Assembly (NCBI GenBank): GCA_041659785.1
Contig: JBAZXO010000002.1
Span: 55,479-119,478 of the forward strand
From: Minisyncoccota bacterium
Lineage (GTDB): Bacteria > Patescibacteriota > Minisyncoccia > Phycocordibacterales > UBA9973
Direction of reading: 5' to 3'
DNA length: 64,000 nt
Numbering within the stretch: position 1 is the stretch's first letter; each line of letters starts with the position of its first letter. A program made the position numbers and the translations under genes. Below, in pieces: positions 5,395 to 59,339 of this stretch. The notes beneath the pieces were generated by a model that saw only the letters and a list, made by a program, of their open reading frames with translations, did not search any database and was not told where the DNA came from.

Positions 5395-5620
5395 ATAATA
5401 AGTTTCACATGGAACATAGTCTAATTGTGTTTCACGTGAAACGTTTAGCTAAATTTTTGTGTCTTTTATAAAAATATCCTTATTTTATAAGGTTTTATTG
5501 ACAAAAATAGACTTAAAAGACAACTTTTTTTACTGTCCTTTATAAACAGTACCCACATAGTTATCCACATATTTCAATAAAATCCTTGTGTTGCAAAGCT
5601 TTACTAAAGGACAGATTTTG

Positions 5621-5852: not shown

Positions 5853-5924
5853 GCACCCGTAGTGAAATGGATATCACAACAGTCTTCGGAACTGTCGTTG
5901 GGGGTTCGAATCCCTCCGGGTGCA
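5853..5924 (+). tRNA. tRNA-Arg (anticodon TCG)
   Basis: Acceptor GCACCCG/CGGGTGC, D-stem GTGA/TCAC, anticodon stem ACAGT/ACTGT with loop CTTCGGA, T-loop GGGGGTTCGAATCCCTC. Confidence 0.85.
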
Positions 5925-5931
5925 CAAAGTC

Positions 5932-7659
5932 GTGGAACAAAACACTAAAAATTTAATAGCAAAAATACCCAAAGAGGTTTCACATGTAACAGATACATTA
6001 GAAAAGTACGGCTTTGAAGTGTACCTTGTTGGTGGATGTGTCCGTGATCTTTTAATGGGCAAAGAGCCAAAAGACTGGGACATTACAACTAACGCTAAAC
6101 CAGAACAAATTATTCCTCTTTTTAAAAAAACTGTTTATGAAAATACTTTTGGAACGGTAGGTGTGGTTCTCCCCTTTAATAAGGGGGAGTGGCCAAAGGT
6201 CGAGGGGGTGGTTTCACATGTAACAGACCCCTCCTCAATCCTCCCCTTAGCAGGGGAGGAAAATATGATTATTGAGGTTACGCCATACAGAATTGAGGCA
6301 AAATATAGTGATTTTAGGCATCCTGACGAGGTAAAATTCAGTGATAAGCTAGAAGATGACCTTAAAAGGCGTGATTTTACAGTTAACGCCCTGGCCTTAA
6401 GTCCCTCCAATTCGGCGGGCAAGCCTAAAGGACAACTGGTGGATTTGTTTGATGGTATAAAGGACATTAAAGACAAGACGTTAAAAGCAGTAGGGAACCC
6501 AGATGACCGTTTTGCAGAAGATGCGCTTCGAATGTTGCGTGCTGTCCGTTTCTCTTGCCAATTAAATTTTTCTGTGTCGTATGAAACTACAGAAAGTATT
6601 TTAAAAAATTCAGAGTTAATAAAAAAAATATCTGAAGAAAGAATTCGTGATGAGTTTGTAAAAATAATTATGTCAGAAAATCCTGCGAGCGGAATTGTGA
6701 TGTTACAAAAATTTAATTTGTTAAAAAATATTATTCCTGAATTAGAAGAGGGTATTGGTTGTGAACAATTAGGTGAACATATTTATGATGTGTGGGATCA
6801 TTTACTTCATGCACTCTCACATGCCGCAGACAAGAATTGGCCTTTAGAAATAAGGCTCGCAGCACTGTTCCATGATATCGGAAAGCCGAGGGCAAGAAGG
6901 TTAGCCGTACCTGATGCTTTTGCTCGGGATATCCTGGCAGGCCAACGTCACCACTCACAAAAGTATACAGGTTCGGCTAACCAAGAAGATTTCTCTGAGG
7001 CTTTTTCGAATGGTGACGTTGCGAAGCAGGACATTCCTGAGAAAAAGAACTCAGAGAAATCTTCAAAGAAAAAATATACTTTTTACGGTCATGAAGTTAT
7101 CGGCGCAAGGATGGCGAAAAAAATAATGGAGAGATTAAAATTTCCTAAAAAAGAAATTGATCTTGTGGAAAAACTCGTACGCAACCATATGTTTTTCTCA
7201 GACACTGAATTGATTACACTTTCTGCTGTTCGAAGAATTGTTGTGAAAGTTGGTAAAGAAAATATTTGGCCACTTATGAATGTCCGTGAGTGTGATAGAG
7301 TGGGGATGAATAAAAAAGAAGCACCCTATCGGCTTCGAAAATACTTCGCGATGATAGAAGAAGCTCTTCGTGACCCTATTTCTGTAGGACAACTAAAGAT
7401 TAATGGAGAATATATGATAAAAGAGCTTGGGATTACTCCTGGACCCAGAATGGGATGGATTTTAAATGCTTTATTGGAAGAAGTTTTAGACGCGCCAGAG
7501 AAGAATACCGTAAGTCATTTATCTGGATTGGTAAAATCATTAAATATGCTTGGTGATGCTGAGCTTAAAGTCCTCGGTTTGCGAGGAAAAGAAAAGAAAG
7601 AAGAGCTTGAAGAAGAAGAAGTCGCGAAACTTCACGAAAAGCATGGAGTGAGAAAGTAA
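5932..7659 (+). CDS. cca: CCA-adding enzyme / poly(A) polymerase family nucleotidyltransferase with HD domain; likely GTG start at 5932, just after tRNA-Arg
   Basis: YLVGGCVRDLLMGKEPKDWDITT head motif and an HD-domain region (LFHDIGKP). The track start at 5920 overlaps the tRNA 3' end. Confidence 0.8.
   Translation: MEQNTKNLIAKIPKEVSHVTDTLEKYGFEVYLVGGCVRDLLMGKEPKDWDITTNAKPEQIIPLFKKTVYENTFGTVGVVLPFNKGEWPKVEGVVSHVTDPSSILPLAGEENMIIEVTPYRIEAKYSDFRHPDEVKFSDKLEDDLKRRDFTVNALALSPSNSAGKPKGQLVDLFDGIKDIKDKTLKAVGNPDDRFAEDALRMLRAVRFSCQLNFSVSYETTESILKNSELIKKISEERIRDEFVKIIMSENPASGIVMLQKFNLLKNIIPELEEGIGCEQLGEHIYDVWDHLLHALSHAADKNWPLEIRLAALFHDIGKPRARRLAVPDAFARDILAGQRHHSQKYTGSANQEDFSEAFSNGDVAKQDIPEKKNSEKSSKKKYTFYGHEVIGARMAKKIMERLKFPKKEIDLVEKLVRNHMFFSDTELITLSAVRRIVVKVGKENIWPLMNVRECDRVGMNKKEAPYRLRKYFAMIEEALRDPISVGQLKINGEYMIKELGITPGPRMGWILNALLEEVLDAPEKNTVSHLSGLVKSLNMLGDAELKVLGLRGKEKKEELEEEEVAKLHEKHGVRK
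6168..6263. repeat. GC-rich composite palindromic insertion inside cca, read in-frame; contains an 18-nt direct repeat of 5976..5993
   Basis: ctcccctttaataagggggag hairpin, then tggccaaaggtcgagggggtgg, then ggtttcacatgtaacaga (identical to 5976..5993), then cctcccc-ttagca-ggggagg hairpin. Related to the family-B elements at 30945 and 58931. Confidence 0.45.
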
Positions 7660-7751
7660 AAAACAAATCTAGCAAAATTTTATCAGGTCCTCGGTTCTCT
7701 GGGTCCCTGTCCCAGCCAGACCATGCTAAAATTTTCTAGATTTGTTTTTTT
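7658..7751. repeat. MITE-like palindromic element, family A (core caggtcctcgg...ccagcc; TIRs aaaaacaaatctagcaaaatttt / aaaattttctagatttgttttttt). Probably also the cca/TMEM175 terminator
   Basis: The inverted termini and GC core were read directly. Homologous copies lie at 29772 (inside comM) and 57507, with a fragment at 40395. Confidence 0.5.
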
Positions 7752-7759
7752 ATATCTTT

Positions 7760-8422
7760 TTAATCTGCGAAGTGGCCTTTTTTGTCTTCGCCGAAAAACA
7801 TATGATGAAGTGTTTTTAGAAAATTTTCGAAAAGTTTTGTGCTATAAGAGGAAAGGTTGAAAATCACAGCTAATGTAAACAAAACCAAGGAAAGTTTTAT
7901 ATTATAAAAAGAAAGGGGAATAGCAATAAGAGCAAAAACAACAGGAACTAATGTGCGTATGGTGCTGCCACGGATTTCTCTTTTTGTTATTTCTGGATTT
8001 TTTATATGTTCAGAAAAAAGCACGTATCTTCTCATCCAATACAGAGTAAGCCCTATCAACATGATGTGAATAGCGAAAAGTATTATAGATAATTCATTGC
8101 TGCTGAAACTTCCAAGGACGCTCGCTGAAAAAGGAACTAAGCTTATAAGCATAAAAAATAAAGCATTTATATTTGTGAGCCTAGAGTCTATATTTTTTGC
8201 ATAAATAGAGACAAAAAAATGGTGCGCTCTCCAATAAGTGAAAAGTAATGAAAAACTCAAAACATAACTGAGCATTAATGGTAATAATTTTTTGATCTCA
8301 AGCCAGAGGCCGTAGTTGTCTATTGGTCCCCAAATGGTGGGTAATTTAATTTGAAAAACTAACACCGTCATCACTATCGCAAAAATTCCATCGGATAATT
8401 GTTCTAATCTATTGTGGCTCAT
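7760..8422 (-). CDS. TMEM175/DUF1211-family membrane protein (putative K+ channel)
   Basis: NRLEQLSDGIFAIVMTVLV matches the R-x-x-x-FSDGVFAI signature. Multi-TM. Confidence 0.65.
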   Translation of the reverse strand: MSHNRLEQLSDGIFAIVMTVLVFQIKLPTIWGPIDNYGLWLEIKKLLPLMLSYVLSFSLLFTYWRAHHFFVSIYAKNIDSRLTNINALFFMLISLVPFSASVLGSFSSNELSIILFAIHIMLIGLTLYWMRRYVLFSEHIKNPEITKREIRGSTIRTLVPVVFALIAIPLSFYNIKLSLVLFTLAVIFNLSSYSTKLFENFLKTLHHMFFGEDKKGHFAD

Positions 8423-9275: not shown

Positions 9276-10232
9276 TTATCCTTTGTTGTGAAACTTTTTG
9301 TGTATATCACGCAAATGTTTGTCTGTGACGTGAGTATAGATTTGAGTAGTCGCGATATTGGAGTGCCCGAGCATAGCCTGGACGGAACGTATATCTGCAC
9401 CATTCGAGAGTAGGTCAGTAGCGAAAACATGACGAATGACGTGTGGGGTTACTTTTTTTGAGATGCCGGCTATTGTAGCGTATCTTTTTACAATTCTTTC
9501 CACTGAACGGCGAGTGAGGCCATCATCCTCTTGAGAATTTTTTTCTTTCTTTTTATCTAAATTTTTCTTTGACGATACTTCATCATTTATTTTTACAAAA
9601 AGAGCATCTGACATATTTTTCCTTATAGCCAAATAATTTTTTACTGCCTTTTTTGCTTCATCAGACAGGAAAACCACGCGTACCTTACCACCCTTGCCAC
9701 GTATAGAAAATTCATCTAAATGCAAATCAAGGTCATTTCGTAAAGAACAAAGTTCTGATACACGTAGGCCAGTAGAAAAAAGCATTTCTAAAATTGCTTT
9801 GTCTCTGTATTTCCTCTCTAAATTTTTTTCGTTATTGGGTGCATCTAGAAGTCTCTTGAGTTCTTCTTGGGAAATAACGTCAATTTGTCTTTCTCCAATT
9901 TTTGCTAGCTCTATGTGGTCAGAGGGGAGAGATGTAATATTTCTTCTTGTTAAAAATTTAAGAAAAGTTCGAAGAGCTATTAAATAGTAATTTTGAGTTT
10001 TCTTTTTTATCGTTTCCCCAGTGGCTCTGTTGTTGCCAGTGGTCTGGCGATTGAGCCAAATACGAAAATCTCGAACTTTTGTATCTGTGATATCTTTTGG
10101 ATCAGTGATTTTTGTTTGGTTAAAAAAGACAGTCAGATAATGATCATAGTTTTCGACTGTTCTTATAGCTCGCCCTTTCTCTATTTCGATATATTCCAAA
10201 AATTGAGTTTTAAGTTGTTGCATGGAAGCCAT
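9276..10232 (-). CDS. Tyrosine recombinase (XerC/XerD-like)
   Basis: C-terminal HVIRHVFATDLLSNGADIRSVQAMLGHSNIATTQIYTHV carries the R..H..R..Y catalytic motif. N-terminal SAM-like domain. Confidence 0.8.
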   Translation of the reverse strand: MASMQQLKTQFLEYIEIEKGRAIRTVENYDHYLTVFFNQTKITDPKDITDTKVRDFRIWLNRQTTGNNRATGETIKKKTQNYYLIALRTFLKFLTRRNITSLPSDHIELAKIGERQIDVISQEELKRLLDAPNNEKNLERKYRDKAILEMLFSTGLRVSELCSLRNDLDLHLDEFSIRGKGGKVRVVFLSDEAKKAVKNYLAIRKNMSDALFVKINDEVSSKKNLDKKKEKNSQEDDGLTRRSVERIVKRYATIAGISKKVTPHVIRHVFATDLLSNGADIRSVQAMLGHSNIATTQIYTHVTDKHLRDIHKKFHNKG

Positions 10233-29257: not shown

Positions 29258-30877
29258 ATGAGTTTTGCAAAAGTCTACTCTGCACAAGTTAATTTACTTA
29301 AGGGTTCTATCGTGACAATTGAAGTGGACCTCTCGCGAGGTCTTCATTCTTTTAGTTTGGTTGGTCTGCCTGATAAAGCGGTGGATGAGTCTAAAGACAG
29401 AGTAAGCGGAGCGATAAAGAATTCTGGTTTTAAGTCACCGAAAGCAAAAAATCAAAAGATAATCGTCTCACTTTCACCAGCTGATTTAAAAAAAGAAGGA
29501 CCATTTTTTGATCTTGGGATTGCACTATCTTATATGCTCGCCGCAGGAGATGTGAAGTTTGATTCAGAGAAAAAGATTTTCTTAGGAGAACTTGGGCTCG
29601 ATGGCACTCTGCGTAGAATTCGTGGAGCATTGCCTCTCGCCCAAGAAGCGAAGAGGCTTGGCTTCGAAGAAATATATTTACCAAAAGAGAATGCAGTCGA
29701 GGCGGCACTCGTGGAGGGCGTCACAATTTTCGGAGCAAATAGTTTAAAAGAAGTTGTTGAGCACCTCAGTTTCCGTGAGTCTAGCAAAATTTCTTCGGGT
29801 CCTCGGTCCTCCGGGGCCCCACACCCCGGCCAGACCACTCAGAAATTTTCTAGTCTCACGGAAACCGGGAAGCTTATTTTGTCTCAGCCACAAACTAAAA
29901 TAAATTATAAAAAAGAAGTTTCACGCACAGACTTTTCTGATATTCGTGGACAAGAAGGAGCAAAACGAGGACTGGAGATTGCAGCAGCTGGCGGGCACAA
30001 TATTGCTATGTACGGTCCGCCAGGCACAGGCAAGACGATGCTTGCACGAGCATTCTCACAACTTCTGCCAGATTTAAATATTGAAGAAGTGTTAGAGATT
30101 ACAGGTATCCATTCTGTGGCGGGGAGTACAATGGGGGAGCTCGTTTGTTTTGCTCCATTTCGAGCGCCACACCACACGTCGTCTTATGTCTCTATCATTG
30201 GTGGAGGAACATACCCAAAGCCAGGGGAAGTGACCCTCGCGCATCGCGGGGTTTTATTTTTAGACGAATTTCCAGAATTTGAAAAGAGAGTTATCGAATC
30301 TTTGCGTCAGCCCCTCGAAGACAACATCGTCTCGATCTCTCGCGCTAAAGGCACAGCCGTATTTCCTTCAAATTTTATTTTAGTAGCAGCGATGAACCCT
30401 TGCCCTTGCGGGAATGCGACTTCAAAACAAAAAGCCTGCATTTGCAAACCTTCAGACCTGGATAGATATAAAAGAAAACTTTCTGGTCCAATAATTGACC
30501 GTATTGATCTATGGGTTTCCGTAGGGAATGTGGATTATAAAAAGTTGGGAGGGGAGGGCAACGGAGAGAAGAGTGAGAAGATAAAAGAGAGAGTTACAAA
30601 AGCGCGAGAAATTCAAAAAGATAGATTTAAAAAATTTGGAAAGAGCATAATTACAAATAGCGAAATGAATGTGAAAGATTTAGGAGCGATGATAAACCTC
30701 TCTGGCAAGGTGCGAGACTTATTGGATGACAGCGCAGAGCGTTTATCACTGTCGGCTCGTGCGTATCATCGAGTTATTAAAATAGCTCAAACTATCGCAG
30801 ATCTGGAATCTTCTCCCAATATCGAAGAACACCATATTCTAGAAGCCATACAATATAGGCCTAAAGTTAATAATTAA
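29258..30877 (+). CDS. comM: YifB/ComM Mg-chelatase-like AAA+ ATPase
   Basis: N-terminal Lon-like domain. Walker A MYGPPGTGKTML. C-terminal ChlI-type domain. Confidence 0.9.
   Translation: MSFAKVYSAQVNLLKGSIVTIEVDLSRGLHSFSLVGLPDKAVDESKDRVSGAIKNSGFKSPKAKNQKIIVSLSPADLKKEGPFFDLGIALSYMLAAGDVKFDSEKKIFLGELGLDGTLRRIRGALPLAQEAKRLGFEEIYLPKENAVEAALVEGVTIFGANSLKEVVEHLSFRESSKISSGPRSSGAPHPGQTTQKFSSLTETGKLILSQPQTKINYKKEVSRTDFSDIRGQEGAKRGLEIAAAGGHNIAMYGPPGTGKTMLARAFSQLLPDLNIEEVLEITGIHSVAGSTMGELVCFAPFRAPHHTSSYVSIIGGGTYPKPGEVTLAHRGVLFLDEFPEFEKRVIESLRQPLEDNIVSISRAKGTAVFPSNFILVAAMNPCPCGNATSKQKACICKPSDLDRYKRKLSGPIIDRIDLWVSVGNVDYKKLGGEGNGEKSEKIKERVTKAREIQKDRFKKFGKSIITNSEMNVKDLGAMINLSGKVRDLLDDSAERLSLSARAYHRVIKIAQTIADLESSPNIEEHHILEAIQYRPKVNN
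29772..29862. repeat. Family-A palindromic element inserted in-frame inside comM (encodes ...FRESSKISSGPRSSGAPHPGQTTQKFSSLTETG...)
   Basis: TIRs tccgtgagtctagcaaaatttct and agaaattttctagtctcacgga. Core cgggtcctcggtcctccggggccccacaccccggccagacc aligns with the 7658 copy. Confidence 0.5.
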
Positions 30878-30896
30878 GTTATCCACAGGTAGTGTG

Positions 30897-30926
30897 TTGA
30901 CAGGTGAACGCTCGTTCACTTATACT
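30897..30926 (+). promoter_or_regulatory. lexA-operon promoter (TTGACA-17-TATACT) with a Cheo-type LexA box tGAACgctcGTTCa (30905..30918) in the spacer
   Basis: Read directly; the GAAC-N4-GTTC palindrome is perfect. Confidence 0.6.
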
Positions 30927-30944
30927 ATTTAGGTAGGTCGTTTA

Positions 30945-31005
30945 AATACCCCTACCCAGCCTCCCCCTATGTAGGGGGAGGTGCCAAAGGCGGAGGGGGA
31001 AAATT
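30945..31005. repeat. Family-B GC palindromic element (aatacccc...cctccccctatgtagggggagg...tgccaaaggcggagggggaaaatt) in the 5' UTR of the lexA operon
   Basis: The 22-nt perfect hairpin at 30960..30981 is identical to 58957..58978. Confidence 0.5.
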
Positions 31006-31027
31006 ATTAAAGTAAATTAAAAATTTT

Positions 31028-31234
31028 ATGTCACAATCACAATATTTAAAAATGTTAGAAAGGGAGATACAAAAGATCAATAAGAAAATTGACTTAAAGA
31101 TTTTAGAAGGAGCAAAGTATGCCAAAGAGGCTAGAGAGCATAAATTACTCTTGAGGAAAGTTCGTTATCATACTAGAAGGAGTTTCTTTAGTAGATTTTT
31201 TCCCACATTTTTTAACTCCAGACTTCAATTCTAA
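31028..31234 (+). CDS. Small hypothetical protein (68 aa, C-terminal hydrophobic/aromatic tail) co-transcribed with lexA
   Basis: Its stop abuts the lexA start (31234/31235). It is the first gene behind the LexA-box promoter. Confidence 0.45.
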   Translation: MSQSQYLKMLEREIQKINKKIDLKILEGAKYAKEAREHKLLLRKVRYHTRRSFFSRFFPTFFNSRLQF

Positions 31235-31801
31235 ATGAAAAATGTTTATCAAACAAAACTAGAATCTTTTTACGGCGACAACAAAAGGATGCCTACGTAT
31301 TCTGAGATGATGAAGCTCTTTGGTTTTAAATCAAAGAATGCCGTTTTTCGCGTGGTGGAGAAATTAATAGAAGCTGGACTCGTAGCAAAAGACCACTTGG
31401 GTAGACTTGTCCCAGCTGAAACTTTTGGAGAAGTACCAATGCTTGGTTTTGTAACTGCGGGGTTTCCAGCTACCGTAGAAGAAGAGTTAGCAGACACTAT
31501 AAAATTAGACGATCTTTTAATAAAAAATAAATCTTTAACATATATGCTCGAAGTCGATGGTGACTCTATGATCGATGCTCACATCGAGCGGGGAGACATG
31601 GTGCTCGTAGAGAAGGCAACTGTCGCGAAAGATGGGCAGATAGTCATAGCTGAAGTAGATGGAGAGTTTACGATGAAATATTTTCGTAAAGATGGAGCAA
31701 AGGTCTGGCTCGAACCAGCTAATAAAAAATATAAACCAATCTATCCAGAACACTCTTTAAATATAAATGCAGTTTTAAAAGCAGTAATAAGAAAATATTA
31801 A
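31235..31801 (+). CDS. lexA: LexA repressor
   Basis: wHTH N-terminus. Ala-Gly cleavage site (VTAGFPA). S24 peptidase motifs VDGDSM...GDMVLV...GEFTMKYF. Confidence 0.85.
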   Translation: MKNVYQTKLESFYGDNKRMPTYSEMMKLFGFKSKNAVFRVVEKLIEAGLVAKDHLGRLVPAETFGEVPMLGFVTAGFPATVEEELADTIKLDDLLIKNKSLTYMLEVDGDSMIDAHIERGDMVLVEKATVAKDGQIVIAEVDGEFTMKYFRKDGAKVWLEPANKKYKPIYPEHSLNINAVLKAVIRKY

Positions 31802-31804
31802 AAT

Positions 31805-31843
31805 AAACTAAAAAATCCCCCAGAAGGGGATTTTTTAGTTTAT
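31805..31843. terminator. Bidirectional terminator aaactaaaaaatcccc-cagaa-ggggattttttagttt
   Basis: Read directly. Confidence 0.6.
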
Positions 31844-31859
31844 CTCGAGATAAAATGAA

Positions 31860-32132
31860 TTAGGCAACCATGTCTTTCAAACCTTTTGCAGCTCGGAATT
31901 TTGGAACTTTCTTTGCAGCTACTTTTACTTGCTCTCCAGTCTTTGGATTGCGAGCCATTCTTGCAGCTCTTGCCTTTACAGAAAAGATACCAAAACCTGC
32001 GATTGAAACTTCACCTCCTTTTTTCAAAGTTCCGATGATAGCATCAAATATTGAGTCTACGATTTCCTCAGCTTGTACTTTTGTACCACCGAGCTTTCCA
32101 TGTACTAATTCAGCTAATGCTTGTTTATTCAT
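31860..32132 (-). CDS. hup: HU-family DNA-binding protein
   Basis: GFGIFSVKARAARMARNPKTGEQV arm motif. Confidence 0.9.
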   Translation of the reverse strand: MNKQALAELVHGKLGGTKVQAEEIVDSIFDAIIGTLKKGGEVSIAGFGIFSVKARAARMARNPKTGEQVKVAAKKVPKFRAAKGLKDMVA

Positions 32133-32292: not shown

Positions 32293-33822
32293 TTATCTAG
32301 CGTATTCAATAATTCTTGTTTCACGAATCATTGTGACCTTGATTTCTCCTGGATATTTGAGTTCTTGTTCAATTTTAATAGCAATATCACGAGCCATAAG
32401 CTTCGCTTCAGCATCAGAAATCTTTTCTGGGGTAACAAATATACGGATTTCACGTCCAGCTTGCAAGGCGTATGATTTTTCGACAGCAGGGAAGCCATTT
32501 ACTAAGGCTTCAAGCTCCTGGAGTCTCTTTAAGTAGTTCTCTACTGAGTCACGACGAGCTCCAGGGCGTCCGCCAGAGATGGCGTCAGCTGTCTGAACGA
32601 TAATTGATTCGATAGTTTCATAAGGATAATCTTCGTGGTGACTTTTCATTGCTGTAACGATACGTTCATCAGCGCCGAACTTCTGTAAGATACGCATACC
32701 TATTTCAATATGTGTACCTTGTACTTCGTGGTCGAGAGCTTTACCGATATCGTGTACCAACGCTCCAGCTTTCGCTATAGCAACGTCTGCGCCGAGTTCT
32801 TCAGCGAGCATTCCTGCTATGTGTGCCATCTCGATAGAGTGCTGTAGAACGTTTTGTCCATAACTTGTACGGAAATACAATCTTCCGATGATTGCGATGA
32901 TACGTGGATCGAAATTGAATATTCCACACTCGTAGACTGCCTGTTCACCTTTTTCTTTAATGATTTTATTTATTTCTTCTTTTGCCTTATCTACTAATTC
33001 TTCGATTTTAGCTGGTTGAATGCGTCCATCGAGAATTAAATTCTCAAGTGCGAGTCTTGCGACCTGTCTTCGAATAGGGTCAAATGAAGAGATAACGATT
33101 GAGCCAGGTGTATCATCCACAATGAGCTCAACTCCAGAAGCTCTTTCGAATGCTCGGATGTTTCGTCCTTCTTTTCCGATGATTTTACCCTTGATTTCGT
33201 TGTTGGGAATAGAAACCACTGTAGTCATGAGTTCAGACGCAGTACTTGAGGCTAGACGCTGAATAGAAGTAGCCAAAATGTCTTTTGCCCTACGGTCTAA
33301 CTTCTCCTCATTAGAATTCTCTAATTTTTGAATCCTAATTAAGATATCTTCCTCGTATTTTTTCTCGACATCTTTTAGAAGCTCTTCTTTTGCTTCTACC
33401 TCAGTCAACTTTGCCACTCTTTCCAACTCAACTATTTTTTCTGCTTCTATTTTTGATACTTTTTCTTGGATTCTTTTTATCTCTTCTACCTTGAGCTTTA
33501 TGCTCTCGACTTCTTTATTTACTTCAACTTGTCTTGAGTCTAGAAATTCGTCCTTTTTGATAAGTCTTTTTTCTGTCTCCTTAAATTCATTTTCTTTCTT
33601 TTTCTCTTCTTCTTTTAAATAAGCGAGCTGTTCTTCAGACTTCTTCTTTGCTTCGTCGGTTATTTTCTGTGCTTCTTCTTTTGCACCGACCATCATTTGC
33701 TTGATGTCTATTTCAATGGATCTTCTTTTCCCTAACGCGATGATTAAGCGAAGATAGTATCCTATCCCCACGCCTAAAAGGAGTACAGCGACTCCGAGTA
33801 GAATTATTATTGTTATACTCAT
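32293..33822 (-). CDS. rny: Ribonuclease Y
   Basis: N-terminal TM, coiled coil, KH domain, HD domain (HSIEMAHIAGMLAEELG...VHDIGKA). Confidence 0.9.
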   Translation of the reverse strand: MSITIIILLGVAVLLLGVGIGYYLRLIIALGKRRSIEIDIKQMMVGAKEEAQKITDEAKKKSEEQLAYLKEEEKKKENEFKETEKRLIKKDEFLDSRQVEVNKEVESIKLKVEEIKRIQEKVSKIEAEKIVELERVAKLTEVEAKEELLKDVEKKYEEDILIRIQKLENSNEEKLDRRAKDILATSIQRLASSTASELMTTVVSIPNNEIKGKIIGKEGRNIRAFERASGVELIVDDTPGSIVISSFDPIRRQVARLALENLILDGRIQPAKIEELVDKAKEEINKIIKEKGEQAVYECGIFNFDPRIIAIIGRLYFRTSYGQNVLQHSIEMAHIAGMLAEELGADVAIAKAGALVHDIGKALDHEVQGTHIEIGMRILQKFGADERIVTAMKSHHEDYPYETIESIIVQTADAISGGRPGARRDSVENYLKRLQELEALVNGFPAVEKSYALQAGREIRIFVTPEKISDAEAKLMARDIAIKIEQELKYPGEIKVTMIRETRIIEYAR

Positions 33823-57590: not shown

Positions 57591-57623
57591 ATATTGTACT
57601 CCATTTATGCTAAAATTCAATTC

Positions 57624-59339
57624 ATGCAAAAGTATGGTGAATTATTGCGGACATTGTTAGAAAAAAGAGGCATTACTGATTCAGCACAGGCTGAGGTTTT
57701 TTTAAACCCCGACTACGAAAGAGATTTCAATAACCCATTCCTGATGAAGGATATGGAGCGTGCCTGTGTGCGTATATTTGAGGCCATAGAAGCAAAAGAA
57801 AAGATAGTTATCTATGCGGATTATGATTGTGATGGTATCCCCGGAGCTGTAATTTTAAATGACCTATTTAAATTATTAGAATACAAAAATTATGAGGTAT
57901 ATATACCCCAGAGAAACTCTGAGGGATATGGCCTAAATTTAGAAGCAATAGAACAATTTGCACAAAACGAAGTAAAGCTTTTAATAACCATTGACTTAGG
58001 CATCACCGCGGTAGCTGAAGTAGCTCAAGCAGAAGTTGATGGTATTGATGTCATAATTACTGACCACCACATTCCTCATGCAGTTTTACCTCGCGCTTAT
58101 GCTATTTTAAATCCTAAAGTAGATGACCCCGCCAAGGCCGGGGCAAGTTACCCAGAGAAAATGCTTTGTGGGGCAGGTGTTGCGTTCAAGCTTGCGCAAG
58201 GATTTATAAAAAAATACGGAGAGTATTTCAAAATAAAAGACGGGCAGGAAAAATGGATGCTCGACATGGCAGGGCTCGCCACACTTTCGGATATGGTCCC
58301 ACTAACTGGTGAGAACAGGGCGATGGTTTATTTCGGGATGAAAGTTTTGAGAAAATCTCCACGTCCAGGCTTACAGAAACTTCTTGCGAAAATGAAAATT
58401 GAGCAGAAATATTTATCTGAAGATGATGTTGGTTTTATGATAACCCCACGCTTAAATGCTGCTTCTCGTATGGATGACCCGATGCGAGCTTATGAACTTC
58501 TTTCTACAAATGATGAAAGAGAAGCTGGTGTCCTTGCAGATCATTTGTCGAAAATAAATGATGACAGGAAAACTATCGTGAAGAGTATTATGCGTGAAGT
58601 GAATAAAAAATTTGAAGAGAGAGAAATGAGAGAAGTAATAGTGATAGGGAATCCAAGCTGGCGAGTCGGTATTTTAGGATTAGTTGCGGGGAAAATATCT
58701 GATGAATACAAAAAACCCGTTTTCGTTTGGGGTAAAGATGAGAATGATTGCATCAAGGGTTCTTGTAGGAGTGATGGTTCAGTGTCTGTGGTAGAGCTAA
58801 TGACCGAAACGACTGAATCATTTATAGATTTCGGTGGGCATGAGCTTGCGGGCGGCTTTTCTGTACATAATGATAAGATTCATTTCTTGGAAGAGGCTTT
58901 ATCTCTTTCTTATAAAAAAATTACTACTTTAAAAAATACCCCCTCCACTGATGGCACCTCCCCCTATGTAGGGGGAGGACAGGTGGGGGTAAATTTTGAT
59001 ATAAAATTTACGCTAGATATGGTAAACATGAAAAATTGGCGAGAGATAGAGAAGCTAGCACCATTTGGTCTGGGAAATCCAAAACCAGTTTTTCTCTTTG
59101 ATAATGTAAAAATAGAAAAAATAAAAAAGTTTGGTAAAAATGGTTCAGGAGAGCATTTAGAAATTAAATTTTCAGATATGAACAATCATAAAGCTACTGC
59201 AATTTCCTTTTTCTCCAACCACGATTCCTTCGAAAAGACTTTATCTGAAGGTATTAATGTAAATTTGCTAGCCACCTTTGACTTATCGAGGTTCCGAGGT
59301 AGAGAAGAGCTAAGATTGAGGATTATTGGTATATGCTGA
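57624..59339 (+). CDS. recJ: Single-stranded-DNA-specific exonuclease RecJ
   Basis: DHH motifs (IYADYDCDGIPGA, ITDHH) and a DHHA1 domain. The ATG at 57624 is preferred; the track TTG start is 57594. Confidence 0.9.
   Translation: MQKYGELLRTLLEKRGITDSAQAEVFLNPDYERDFNNPFLMKDMERACVRIFEAIEAKEKIVIYADYDCDGIPGAVILNDLFKLLEYKNYEVYIPQRNSEGYGLNLEAIEQFAQNEVKLLITIDLGITAVAEVAQAEVDGIDVIITDHHIPHAVLPRAYAILNPKVDDPAKAGASYPEKMLCGAGVAFKLAQGFIKKYGEYFKIKDGQEKWMLDMAGLATLSDMVPLTGENRAMVYFGMKVLRKSPRPGLQKLLAKMKIEQKYLSEDDVGFMITPRLNAASRMDDPMRAYELLSTNDEREAGVLADHLSKINDDRKTIVKSIMREVNKKFEEREMREVIVIGNPSWRVGILGLVAGKISDEYKKPVFVWGKDENDCIKGSCRSDGSVSVVELMTETTESFIDFGGHELAGGFSVHNDKIHFLEEALSLSYKKITTLKNTPSTDGTSPYVGGGQVGVNFDIKFTLDMVNMKNWREIEKLAPFGLGNPKPVFLFDNVKIEKIKKFGKNGSGEHLEIKFSDMNNHKATAISFFSNHDSFEKTLSEGINVNLLATFDLSRFRGREELRLRIIGIC
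58931..58995. repeat. Family-B GC palindromic element inserted in-frame inside recJ (encodes KNTPSTDGTSPYVGGGQVGVNFD)
   Basis: The 22-nt hairpin at 58957..58978 equals 30960..30981. Flanks aaaaaatacccc and gggggtaaatttt mirror the lexA-UTR copy. Confidence 0.5.

What the first reader, a model, noticed from the sequence alone, without database searches (positions are those of the whole stretch)
30897..31801. SOS module: perfect Cheo-type LexA box inside the promoter, a 68-aa ORF translationally coupled to lexA, and a palindromic element in the UTR
tGAACgctcGTTCa sits between a TTGACA -35 and a TATACT -10. The first gene is an unannotated 68-aa protein with a hydrophobic/aromatic C-terminal tail, a candidate SOS effector such as a division inhibitor, whose stop abuts the lexA ATG. 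A family-B GC hairpin element occupies the 5' UTR.
Basis: partly seen in the sequence, partly recalled or inferred. Interest (0 to 1): 0.5.

Follow-up and report, generated by a model that had tools for sequence, protein, structure and literature searches.

The report
DNA-damage operon with unknown small protein
This is the self-repressed lexA (DNA-damage response) operon of an uncultured Patescibacteria bacterium; its first gene encodes a conserved, uncharacterised 68-residue protein that stays next to lexA in relatives, and its promoter also carries a conserved binding site for the replication initiator DnaA.

Summary
TTGACA (30897-902), an 18-nt spacer and TATACT (30921-926) enclose the palindrome GTGAACGCTCGTTCAC. 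A 68-aa ORF (31028-31234) ends exactly where a bona fide lexA (31235-31801) starts. A GC-rich nested palindrome (30948-30999) lies in the 5' UTR.

Comparison with relatives makes the module solid:
- All 80 related genomes have small gene then lexA, with GAACGnnCGTTC between -35 and -10.
- The 14-mer operator occurs nowhere else in 469 kb of related DNA.
- The ORF is under purifying selection and belongs to an orphan family (264 clusters at 50% identity; no Pfam, NCBIfam, PHROG, PADLOC or PDB match).
- It is predicted to be a basic alpha-helical hairpin with a motif-bearing aromatic C-terminal tail.
- Linkage to lexA survives three gene arrangements.

It is conserved in 75 of 79 genomes, and in 24 of 25 lexA promoters with the small gene versus 1 of 6 without it.

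The UTR palindrome is a mobile element; a second copy sits in frame inside a recJ-like gene.

The small protein's function is untested. An SOS/DnaA-controlled checkpoint effector is most likely; a LexA partner is the main rival.

The parts
30879..30887 (+). DnaA box TTATCCACA (9/9 consensus), 9 nt upstream of the -35 hexamer
   Evidence: one of only 2 perfect boxes in the window. Perfect in 75 of 79 related genome loci at a fixed 16-18 nt from the LexA box. Present with 1 mismatch or fewer in 24 of 25 metagenomic promoters that carry the small gene, against 1 of 6 lexA promoters without it. Binding by DnaA is inferred, not shown.
30897..30902 (+). -35 hexamer TTGACA
   Evidence: conserved in the box-centred alignment of 80 loci.
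30904..30919 (.). LexA operator: 16-bp palindrome GTGAACGCTCGTTCAC (core GAAC-N4-GTTC at 30906-30917), filling the promoter spacer
   Evidence: GAACGnnCGTTC is present in 80 of 80 related loci between -35 and -10. The 14-mer with 1 mismatch or fewer occurs only at these promoters in 469 kb. It also precedes lexA genes that lack the small gene.
30921..30926 (+). -10 hexamer TATACT
   Evidence: nearly invariant (T/C)TATACT in relatives.
30937..30940 (+). Conserved GTCG near the probable transcript start; role unknown
   Evidence: GTCG lies within 30 nt after the -10 in 60 of 80 loci, against 5.7% of background windows.
30948..30999 (.). GC-rich nested palindromic repeat element inserted in the 5' UTR (outer arms ACCCCTACC / GGCGGAGGGGG, inner arms CCTCCCCCTA / TAGGGGGAGG)
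   Evidence: The UTR folds at -34.5 kcal/mol, dominated by this element. A second copy lies at 58957-58990 on the minus strand. Similar elements sit at the same UTR spot in about 10 relatives that are scattered on a LexA tree.
31028..31234 (+). Gene for a 68-aa basic protein (orphan family): predicted alpha-helical hairpin (residues 3-27 and 32-57) plus an aromatic C-terminal tail RRSFFSRFFPTFFNSRLQF
   Evidence: 467 close homologues and 264 clusters at 50% identity. Codon-position differences 0.17/0.096/0.46, with the other five frames closed. AlphaFold2 pLDDT 85.8. No family or structure match.
31235..31801 (+). lexA (188 aa): wHTH N-domain, Ala75-Gly76 cleavage site, Ser111/Lys148 dyad
   Evidence: Peptidase_S24 at 5e-29. 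TIGR00498 lexA at 127.5 bits, above the 110.95 cut-off. 33% identity to E. coli LexA with the catalytic residues aligned. Best PDB hits are LexA repressors.
31801..31845 (.). Bidirectional intrinsic terminator shared with the convergent HU gene (31860-32132, minus strand)
   Evidence: stem of up to 20 pairs around CCCC-loop-GGGG, flanked by A and T runs; sequence.

Best explanation
The region is a two-gene, LexA-autorepressed operon of a Paceibacteria/Nomurabacteria-type (Patescibacteria) genome.

Regulation. A LexA dimer bound to GTGAACGCTCGTTCAC fills the spacer between -35 and -10 and blocks RNA polymerase. DNA damage leads to RecA-stimulated self-cleavage of LexA at Ala75-Gly76 and opens the promoter. 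These steps are inferred from the LexA family. A DnaA box one to two helical turns upstream gives a second input from the replication initiator; whether it activates or represses is unknown.

Transcript and translation. The transcript has a roughly 100-nt leader that hosts a mobile GC-rich palindrome. This is probably a passenger, or at most a stabilising 5' hairpin. The first cistron is the 68-aa protein. lexA is translated by termination-reinitiation, because the TAA stop abuts the lexA ATG.

The small protein. It is a very basic alpha-helical hairpin with a short aromatic C-terminal tail bearing the motif hydrophobic-hydrophobic-x-[R/K]-hydrophobic and ending in a hydrophobic residue. I take it to be the output (effector) of the module. 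Most likely it is a damage- and replication-stress-induced checkpoint protein that holds back cell division or replication. The tail would attach it to the membrane periphery or to a partner, or serve as a degron.

Confidence by layer: operon and LexA operator about 0.9; DnaA co-control about 0.65; effector/checkpoint role of the small protein about 0.35-0.4.
For: Operon and operator:
- Searches show the anatomy.
- lexA identity rests.
- All 80 genome loci have small gene then lexA, with GAACGnnCGTTC between TTGACA and TATACT.
- The operator 14-mer is exclusive to these promoters in 469 kb.
- Six distant family members with mis-called starts read E-R-x-F-T-Y-T, which is the translated operator plus -10.

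DnaA box:
- perfect in 75 of 79 loci; 24 of 25 vs 1 of 6 depending on the small gene (Fisher p = 2e-4); background rate 1.8% or less.
- It persists with the small gene even where that gene is divergent from a different type of LexA and no GAAC box is visible (L210).
- DnaA and LexA co-regulate uvrB and recN in E. coli (review PMC8203912).

The small gene is a real protein-coding gene:
- (66% of differing codons are synonymous).

The small gene is an effector tied to SOS rather than a leader peptide:
- Linkage to lexA survives three arrangements: upstream (the majority), downstream (L135) and divergent (L210/L211).
- Small SOS division inhibitors of Gram-positive bacteria are typically encoded next to lexA (PMC6851548).

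Tail:
- The motif is present in 66 of 131 tails vs 11 +/- 3 in shuffles.
- A hydrophobic C-terminal dipeptide is present in 62 of 131 vs 15 +/- 4.
- The helical hydrophobic moment is modestly above that of shuffled tails (mean 0.525 vs 0.468, less than one shuffle SD) and lies within the range computed for three known membrane-targeting tail sequences, which I entered from memory.
- One outlying member has a true C-terminal transmembrane helix (P0251).
Against: - No experiment and no homology to any characterised protein, so the effector role rests on context and analogy.
- The tail is too short and too charged to span a membrane (median uncharged stretch 8 residues; 18 or more in only 3 of 141), unlike YneA, SosA or ChiZ.
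- Being the first cistron of the lexA operon means the protein is also made at the basal, repressed level in step with LexA. That is awkward for an inhibitor unless it is unstable.
- Tight translational coupling would fit a stoichiometric LexA partner equally well.
- The association between the DnaA box and the small gene is confounded by phylogeny, because carriers form one broad clade.
- DnaA binding specificity in this lineage is assumed from the general consensus.
- No other operator was found in the window or flanks, so SOS induction itself is inferred.
Confidence: 0.5

Rival explanations
1. The small protein is a LexA partner. It would form a complex with LexA and tune its DNA binding or RecA-stimulated self-cleavage, as phage GIL01 gp7 does for Bacillus LexA. 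It would be made in fixed proportion to LexA through translational coupling.
For: - The stop abuts or overlaps the lexA start in 61 of 80 loci.
- Gene linkage holds across LexA proteins only 50-57% identical to the window's.
- There is precedent for a small LexA-binding co-factor (PMC4551915, title and abstract).
Against: - lexA genes of the same subfamily, with the same operator, exist without the small gene (6 loci).
- The small gene also occurs divergent from a different-type 212-aa LexA (L210) and once with no lexA nearby (L213).
- A conserved aromatic tail and a DnaA box that tracks the small gene are not explained by this model.
- There is no similarity to gp7 or any PHROG family.
- Complex prediction could not be run.
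Confidence: 0.2
2. The small protein is an SOS-induced toxic or membrane-perturbing peptide, a TisB- or HokE-like growth-arrest factor or the toxin of a toxin-antitoxin-like pair, rather than a specific checkpoint regulator.
For: - It is small, has a net charge of about +9 and a hydrophobic/aromatic C-terminus.
- It is under LexA control.
- One member carries a real transmembrane anchor (P0251).
Against: - Most of the protein is a highly conserved soluble helical hairpin with invariant polar residues N18, D22, Y31 and H38. That is unlike short hydrophobic type I toxins.
- Tails are too short to span a bilayer.
- No PADLOC hit and no toxin-like Pfam family.
- Basal co-expression with LexA would be harmful.
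Confidence: 0.1
3. The ORF matters mainly as an upstream reading frame whose translation sets the level of lexA translation. The peptide itself would have no function.
For: - The lexA start has no Shine-Dalgarno sequence and directly abuts the upstream stop.
- Coupling is frequent among relatives.
Against: - There is strong purifying selection on the amino-acid sequence: differences at codon positions 1/2/3 are 0.17/0.096/0.46, and the core is conserved across 264 clusters.
- The gene order is reversed in L135 and divergent in L210.
- 19 of 80 loci have gaps of 9-124 nt.
- Shine-Dalgarno sequences are rare genome-wide, so their absence here says little.
Confidence: 0.04
4. The TTATCCACA upstream of -35 is not a DnaA site. 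It would be a binding site for another factor or a promoter-proximal element that happens to match the DnaA consensus.
For: - It is a single box, not a cluster.
- DnaA boxes occur at chance frequency in the window overall.
- No binding data exist for this lineage.
Against: - It is a 9/9 match to the consensus (PMC8203912) and is kept in 75 of 79 genomes while the flanks vary.
- It is kept in either orientation in distant relatives: TGTGGATAA in L124, TGTGGACAA in L083.
- Spacings to the operator cluster near 7, 15 and 25 nt, about one helical turn apart.
Confidence: 0.15

Closest known systems
Autoregulated lexA with a GAAC-N4-GTTC (Cheo-type) operator, as in Firmicutes and Actinobacteria
   Same: A palindromic GAAC-N4-GTTC dyad (motif as cited in PMC4951493) overlaps the promoter of lexA itself. 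The repressor is an S24 self-cleaving protein with an Ala-Gly site and a Ser/Lys dyad.
   Different: The dyad is longer and stricter (GTGAACG-nn-CGTTCAC), with T/A rather than C/G outside the GAAC core. The CGAAC consensus of Bacillus is from my memory. lexA is the second cistron, behind a small gene. A comparative study of the Patescibacteria SOS network exists (Sanchez-Osuna, Barbe and Erill 2017, cited in PMC8565304), but I could not read it. It may already report this motif.
lexA-adjacent SOS cell-division inhibitors (YneA, SosA, ChiZ/Rv2719c, DivS)
   Same: These are small, poorly conserved, LexA-controlled genes that sit next to lexA. That synteny is what identified SosA (PMC6851548). 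One distant member here (L210) is even divergent from lexA, like them.
   Different: There is no sequence similarity. The known inhibitors have an N-terminal transmembrane helix with an extracellular C-terminus and often a LysM domain. This family is a cytoplasmic-looking basic helical hairpin with a short C-terminal aromatic tail. It is usually co-transcribed upstream of lexA rather than divergent.
Sda of Bacillus subtilis (replication-stress checkpoint protein)
   Same: Sda transcription is controlled directly by DnaA binding at its promoter, and it acts as a checkpoint output (PMC8203912). That it is a very small two-helix hairpin is from my memory of Rowland et al. 2004. The fold class matches the model.
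   Different: No detectable homology. Sda inhibits sporulation histidine kinases, which are irrelevant to these organisms. Sda is not linked to lexA and has no aromatic tail.
Phage GIL01 gp7, a small LexA-binding co-repressor
   Same: A small protein functionally coupled to LexA (PMC4551915).
   Different: gp7 is phage-encoded. There is no similarity and no relatives of this family in viral contigs. Binding to LexA is untested here.
DnaA/LexA co-regulated SOS promoters (E. coli uvrB, recN)
   Same: A DnaA box and a LexA box in one promoter (PMC8203912 citing Wurihan et al. 2018).
   Different: Here the dual control is on the lexA operon itself. It is conserved across a whole clade and tracks the presence of the small gene.
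REP/MITE-type and Rickettsia palindromic elements (RPE)
   Same: The UTR element is a short, GC-rich, nested palindrome present in several copies. One copy is inserted in frame in a protein-coding gene.
   Different: The sequence family is different and is unnamed as far as my searches show. Mobility is inferred only from its patchy distribution.

Membership tests
LexA repressor (TIGR00498) | C-terminal S24 self-cleaving peptidase domain | tested here: met
   PF00717 at 5.3e-29, residues 68-173.
LexA repressor (TIGR00498) | Score above the curated equivalog cut-off | tested here: met
   127.5 bits against a cut-off of 110.95.
LexA repressor (TIGR00498) | Ala-Gly cleavage site and Ser/Lys catalytic dyad | tested here: met
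   A75-G76, S111 and K148 align with E. coli A84-G85, S119 and K156 (the E. coli sequence was entered from memory).
LexA repressor (TIGR00498) | N-terminal winged-helix DNA-binding domain | tested here: inconclusive
   Pfam LexA_DNA_bind scores only 13.2 bits (E = 0.076), below the cut-off. However, alignments to E. coli LexA and to PDB LexA chains begin at residue 18-20.
LexA repressor (TIGR00498) | Operator at its own promoter (autoregulation) | tested here: met
   The palindrome lies between -35 and -10 in the window and in 80 of 80 relatives. Repression itself is not testable here.
Firmicutes/Actinobacteria-type (Cheo) LexA box | Inverted repeat GAAC-N4-GTTC | tested here: met
   GAACGCTCGTTC at 30906-30917; motif definition from PMC4951493.
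Firmicutes/Actinobacteria-type (Cheo) LexA box | Bound by the cognate LexA | not testable with these tools
   Needs EMSA or footprinting.
Gram-positive SOS division inhibitors (YneA/SosA/ChiZ/DivS) | Encoded next to lexA and under LexA control | tested here: met
   Adjacent in 80 of 80 genome loci and in most distant loci; the operator lies in its promoter. Control is inferred.
Gram-positive SOS division inhibitors (YneA/SosA/ChiZ/DivS) | Single transmembrane helix (N-terminal), with or without LysM | tested here: not met
   No hydrophobic N-terminus. The C-terminal tail has a median uncharged stretch of 8 residues, with 18 or more in 3 of 141. No LysM or any other Pfam domain. Family features are from PMC6851548.
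Gram-positive SOS division inhibitors (YneA/SosA/ChiZ/DivS) | Blocks septation when induced | not testable with these tools
   Needs expression and microscopy.
SulA | Sequence or profile similarity to SulA | tested here: not met
   No Pfam or NCBIfam hit at E of 1 or less other than noise.
Sda-like DnaA-controlled hairpin checkpoint proteins | Two-helix antiparallel hairpin | tested here: met
   AlphaFold2 model with helices 3-27 and 32-57, pLDDT 85.8. This fold is generic.
Sda-like DnaA-controlled hairpin checkpoint proteins | Homology to Sda | tested here: not met
   No PDB sequence or fold hit to Sda.
DnaA box | 9-mer TTATCCACA conserved at orthologous promoters | tested here: met
   consensus from PMC8203912.
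DnaA box | Bound by DnaA and affects transcription | not testable with these tools
   Needs binding and reporter assays.
beta-clamp-binding proteins (QL[SD]LF-type C-terminal motif) | Gln-anchored penta- or hexapeptide in the tail | tested here: not met
   0 of 131 (pentapeptide) and 2 of 131 (hexapeptide) tails, which is not above shuffles.
Mobile palindromic repeat elements (REP/MITE/RPE-like) | Multiple copies with nested inverted repeats, in genic and intergenic sites | tested here: met
   Two copies in the window, one in frame in a recJ-like ORF. There are 11 further copies in fetched loci. Target-site duplication was not examined.

The most novel reading that the evidence does not exclude
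The 68-aa protein founds a new family of bacterial checkpoint effectors specific to Paceibacteria-type Patescibacteria. It would be switched on jointly by LexA inactivation and by DnaA status, and it would act through its hairpin and aromatic tail on the replication-initiation or division machinery (for example DnaA itself, FtsZ or FtsA). That would give these minimal-genome, episymbiotic bacteria a single compact gene linking DNA damage, replication and the cell cycle.
Probability: 0.3. Interest if true: 0.7.

Novelty: new variant of a known kind. Interest (0 to 1): 0.55.

Why it matters
Patescibacteria (CPR) are a very large, almost entirely uncultured part of bacterial diversity with minimal genomes, and their cell-cycle control is essentially unknown.

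This module offers a concrete, testable handle. It contains an orphan but highly conserved small protein that stays next to lexA through three different gene arrangements. It also has a promoter that appears to combine the DNA-damage sensor (LexA) and the replication initiator (DnaA).

If the protein is a checkpoint effector, it would be a new solution to the job done by SulA, YneA, SidA or Sda, and a useful marker of the SOS response in metagenomes. If it is a LexA partner, it would be the first chromosomal counterpart of phage gp7.

Either way, the operator (GTGAACG-nn-CGTTCAC) can now be used to map the regulon in complete genomes.

Tried and rejected
- Homology searches for the small protein against Pfam, NCBIfam, PHROGs, PADLOC, PDB sequences (with a profile) and PDB folds found nothing above noise. 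Only generic alpha-hairpins such as SSV1 D-63 and the seryl-tRNA synthetase arm appeared.
- There are no relatives in viral contigs (the first attempt with the broad alignment failed).
- Predicting a small-protein/LexA complex was not possible.
- The beta-clamp-binding-motif idea for the tail is rejected. A true transmembrane anchor is rejected for most members.
- Regulon definition failed. The window has one operator only and the flanks of relatives have none. A metagenome scan for the 16-mer returned lexA promoters plus unrelated sites such as TetR operators, hairpins and high-GC coding DNA, with no recognisable SOS genes.
- Rfam finds no known RNA family in the leader.
- The 2017 Patescibacteria SOS paper is not in the library, so I could not check whether it already reports the motif or the small gene.
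- The split-LexA idea (small ORF as a detached LexA N-domain) is rejected, because LexA here has its own complete N-terminal domain aligned to E. coli LexA.
Full report
**What is in the sequence.**
- The window is AT-rich (about 36% GC).
- Around the finding, the gene order is: a comM/yifB-type gene (29258-30877, +), the module, an HU gene (31860-32132, -) and an RNase Y-like gene (32293-33822, -). The RNase Y name comes from reading the translation; it was not scanned.
- The module reads, in order:
  - TTATCCACA (30879-30887)
  - TTGACA (30897-30902)
  - GTGAACGCTCGTTCAC (30904-30919)
  - TATACT (30921-30926)
  - a leader of about 100 nt containing a GC-rich nested palindrome (30948-30999)
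  - a 68-codon ORF (31028-31234)
  - a 188-codon ORF (31235-31801), whose ATG follows the TAA of the first ORF with no gap
  - a bidirectional terminator hairpin (31801-31845)
.
- On its own, GAAC-N4-GTTC is not improbable in 64 kb: 2 hits against 0.71 expected. The case therefore rests on position and conservation.

**The second gene is lexA.**
- It has a Peptidase_S24 domain (5e-29).
- It exceeds the curated cut-off of the NCBIfam lexA equivalog model (127.5 vs 110.95 bits).
- Its best solved relatives are LexA repressors.
- It aligns with E. coli LexA so that Ala75-Gly76, Ser111 and Lys148 match the cleavage site and catalytic dyad.
- The Pfam model for the N-terminal DNA-binding domain is only weakly matched. 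The alignments nevertheless start at residue 18-20, so the protein is a full-length, slightly short LexA.

**The operator and promoter are conserved.**
- A genome-collection scan with the small protein returned 80 loci from Nomurabacteria/Paceibacteria-type metagenome-assembled genomes.
- In all 80, lexA lies directly downstream and GAACG-nn-CGTTC lies upstream, between TTGACA and (T/C)TATACT.
- The 14-mer TGAACGnnCGTTCA with 1 mismatch or fewer occurs 85 times in 469 kb of related DNA, every time at this promoter.
- In the window it occurs once.
- The same layout is found in distant family members from metagenomes.
- It is also found in front of lexA genes that lack the small gene.
- This is what autoregulation by LexA through a Firmicutes/Actinobacteria-type GAAC-N4-GTTC dyad looks like (motif as cited in PMC4951493). 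An operator filling the spacer implies repression by promoter occlusion.
- RecA-dependent cleavage and induction are inferred from the family, not shown.

- Anchoring the 80 promoters on the operator exposes a second invariant block, (G)TTATCCACA(G). It lies 16-18 nt before the GAAC core. It is perfect in 75 of 79 loci and has one mismatch in the other four, while the bases around it vary.
- This is the 9/9 DnaA-box consensus (PMC8203912).
- It recurs in distant relatives: abutting the -35 (L084, L085, L173), one or two helical turns away (L135, L136, L148), or inverted (L124; L083 with one mismatch).
- In an independent metagenome sample, a box with 1 mismatch or fewer is present in 24 of 25 promoters that drive the small gene, but in only 1 of 6 lexA promoters without it. 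Fisher p = 2e-4; the background rate is about 1.8% per 45-nt window.
- It is present even where the small gene is divergent from a different kind of LexA and no GAAC dyad is visible (L210).
- The association is confounded by shared ancestry, and DnaA binding is assumed. Still, the simplest reading is that DnaA co-controls this promoter, and that this control belongs to the small gene.
- DnaA/LexA co-regulation has precedent at E. coli uvrB and recN.

**The small protein.**
- It is a real gene. Among 81 orthologues, pairwise differences at codon positions 1, 2 and 3 are 0.17, 0.096 and 0.46. Of differing codons, 66% are synonymous, and the other five frames are closed.
- It is called as a 'hypothetical protein' in public records.
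- The family is large: 467 close homologues and 264 clusters at 50% identity at E of 1e-3 or less. Nearly all members are 60-75 residues long.
- Core motif: M-[ST]-x-x-Q-Y-x-x-x-L-E-x-E-I-x-K-L-N-x-x-I-D-x-K-I-x-x-G-x-x-Y-x-x-E-A-R-x-H-K-x-L-L. N18, I21, D22, Y31 and H38 are invariant across 50 diverse members.
- AlphaFold2 with that alignment gives a confident antiparallel two-helix hairpin (pLDDT 85.8; helices 3-27 and 32-57) and an unconfident tail.
- Fold and profile searches return only generic hairpins. Pfam, NCBIfam, PHROGs and PADLOC return nothing.
- The protein is very basic (median net charge +9).
- The tail follows a basic linker and is aromatic: 20-26% Phe, and Phe is the last residue in 44% of cluster representatives.
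- The tail is too short and too charged to cross a membrane.
- The tail is not merely hydrophobic. A hydrophobic-hydrophobic-x-[RK]-hydrophobic motif occurs in 66 of 131 tails against 11 +/- 3 in shuffles. A hydrophobic C-terminal dipeptide occurs in 62 of 131 against 15 +/- 4.
- Its helical hydrophobic moment is only modestly above that of shuffled tails (mean 0.525 vs 0.468). It lies within the range computed for three known membrane-targeting tail sequences, which I entered from memory.
- One outlying member (P0251) replaces the tail with a genuine transmembrane helix.
- A Gln-anchored beta-clamp motif is absent.

**Linkage to lexA in three arrangements.**
- The usual order is small gene then lexA. 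The small gene's stop overlaps the lexA start by 8 nt in 37 of 80 loci. The gap is 0-6 nt in 24 of 80 and 9-124 nt in 19 of 80.
- In L135 the order is operator, lexA, small gene.
- In L210/L211 the small gene is divergent from a 212-aa LexA of another type.
- In L213 a transmembrane-anchored member has no lexA nearby.
- Several lexA genes of the same subfamily lack the small gene.
- This pattern argues against a mere leader ORF and weakens an obligate LexA-complex model. It fits a LexA-controlled effector kept near its regulator. That is the synteny that led to the discovery of YneA, ChiZ, DivS and SosA (PMC6851548).

**The leader and its palindrome.**
- Leaders in relatives range from 33 to 147 nt. 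At the same spot, just after a conserved GTCG (60 of 80 loci vs 5.7% background), they carry at least five unrelated hairpin inserts.
- The window's element has exact-core copies in the leaders of about 10 relatives. These relatives are scattered on a LexA tree, next to sisters with other inserts or none. This points to repeated insertion or replacement rather than inheritance.
- A second copy in the window, on the opposite strand, lies in frame inside a recJ-like ORF.
- No Rfam family matches the leader, and no T-run follows the hairpin.
- I therefore regard the element as a mobile passenger, possibly tolerated or favoured as a 5' stabilising hairpin. It is not a dedicated regulator.

**Most likely mechanism and its limits.**
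- Shown by sequence and comparison: a lexA operon with an operator in the promoter spacer, a conserved DnaA box, a conserved small first cistron, and stop/start coupling.
- Inferred from family knowledge: LexA occlusion, RecA-triggered cleavage, induction, and DnaA binding.
- Inferred by analogy: the small protein is the module's output. It would be a damage- and replication-stress-induced checkpoint effector that uses its tail for peripheral membrane or partner binding, or for turnover.
- I put this last step at about 0.35-0.4, a LexA-partner role at about 0.2, a toxic peptide at about 0.1 and a pure leader ORF below 0.05.

**Novelty.**
- LexA autoregulation through GAAC-N4-GTTC is standard. 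A comparative study of the Patescibacteria SOS network exists (cited in PMC8565304) but I could not read it.
- Three things appear new as far as my searches reach: the orphan small-protein family welded to lexA, its DnaA box, and the leader as a landing pad for palindromic elements.
- I rate this a new variant of a known kind, of moderate interest.

Noticed in passing
window 58940-58990 (minus-strand copy; core 58957-58978), inside ORF 57594-59339: A second copy of the UTR palindromic element lies inside a 581-aa recJ-like ORF. It is read in frame as NTPSTDGTSPYVGGGQVGVN, which resembles the behaviour of Rickettsia palindromic elements. A partial look-alike lies at 6182-6212 inside ORF 5920-7659.
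   Followed up: partly
window 29780-29850 (inside comM, 29258-30877) and 7668-7707: A different palindromic repeat (tctagcaaaatttcttcgggtcctcgg...agaaattttctag) is inserted in frame in comM, between its ChlI N-domain and its AAA+ domain. It adds a Ser/Pro/Gly-rich stretch. A related copy lies just after ORF 5920-7659.
   Followed up: no
window 30937-30940; L001-L080, 7-15 nt after the -10: GTCG is conserved shortly after the -10 in 60 of 80 loci, against 5.7% background. It is often followed by (A)TTAGTA, and the hairpin inserts land just after it. It may mark the transcript start or an unknown site.
   Followed up: partly
5' UTRs of L001-L080: The same leader position carries at least five unrelated hairpin or palindrome inserts in different relatives. 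Carriers of one type are scattered on a LexA tree, so the site looks like a hot spot for small mobile palindromes.
   Followed up: partly
L210/L211 (small gene 2001-2195 +, lexA 1033-1671 -), L135, L213: Variant arrangements of the family exist: divergent from a 212-aa LexA of another type, with a DnaA box but no GAAC dyad; downstream of lexA; and a transmembrane-anchored member with no lexA nearby.
   Followed up: partly
whole window (43 large ORFs): Only 9 of 43 ORFs have any Shine-Dalgarno-like purine run. Many have a TATAAT-like box 6-12 nt before the ATG (for example upstream of 7760-8422, 9276-10232, 25549, 26209 and 54624). This suggests widespread leaderless or very short-leader mRNAs.
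   Followed up: no
window 5561-5569: The only other perfect DnaA box in the window lies in an intergenic region that appears to carry tRNA-like sequences. It is not part of a cluster, so there is no sign of oriC.
   Followed up: no
L112 (10802-10842), L168 (about 1009): The same 16-mer, GTGAACGnnCGTTCAC, occurs in tandem in front of TetR-family genes on high-GC contigs. The palindrome alone is therefore not diagnostic of LexA outside this lineage.
   Followed up: no
L086 (1040-2795), L176: In some relatives lexA is followed directly by a Y-family (IMS/DinB-type) polymerase gene, giving small gene, lexA, dinB or lexA, dinB operons.
   Followed up: no
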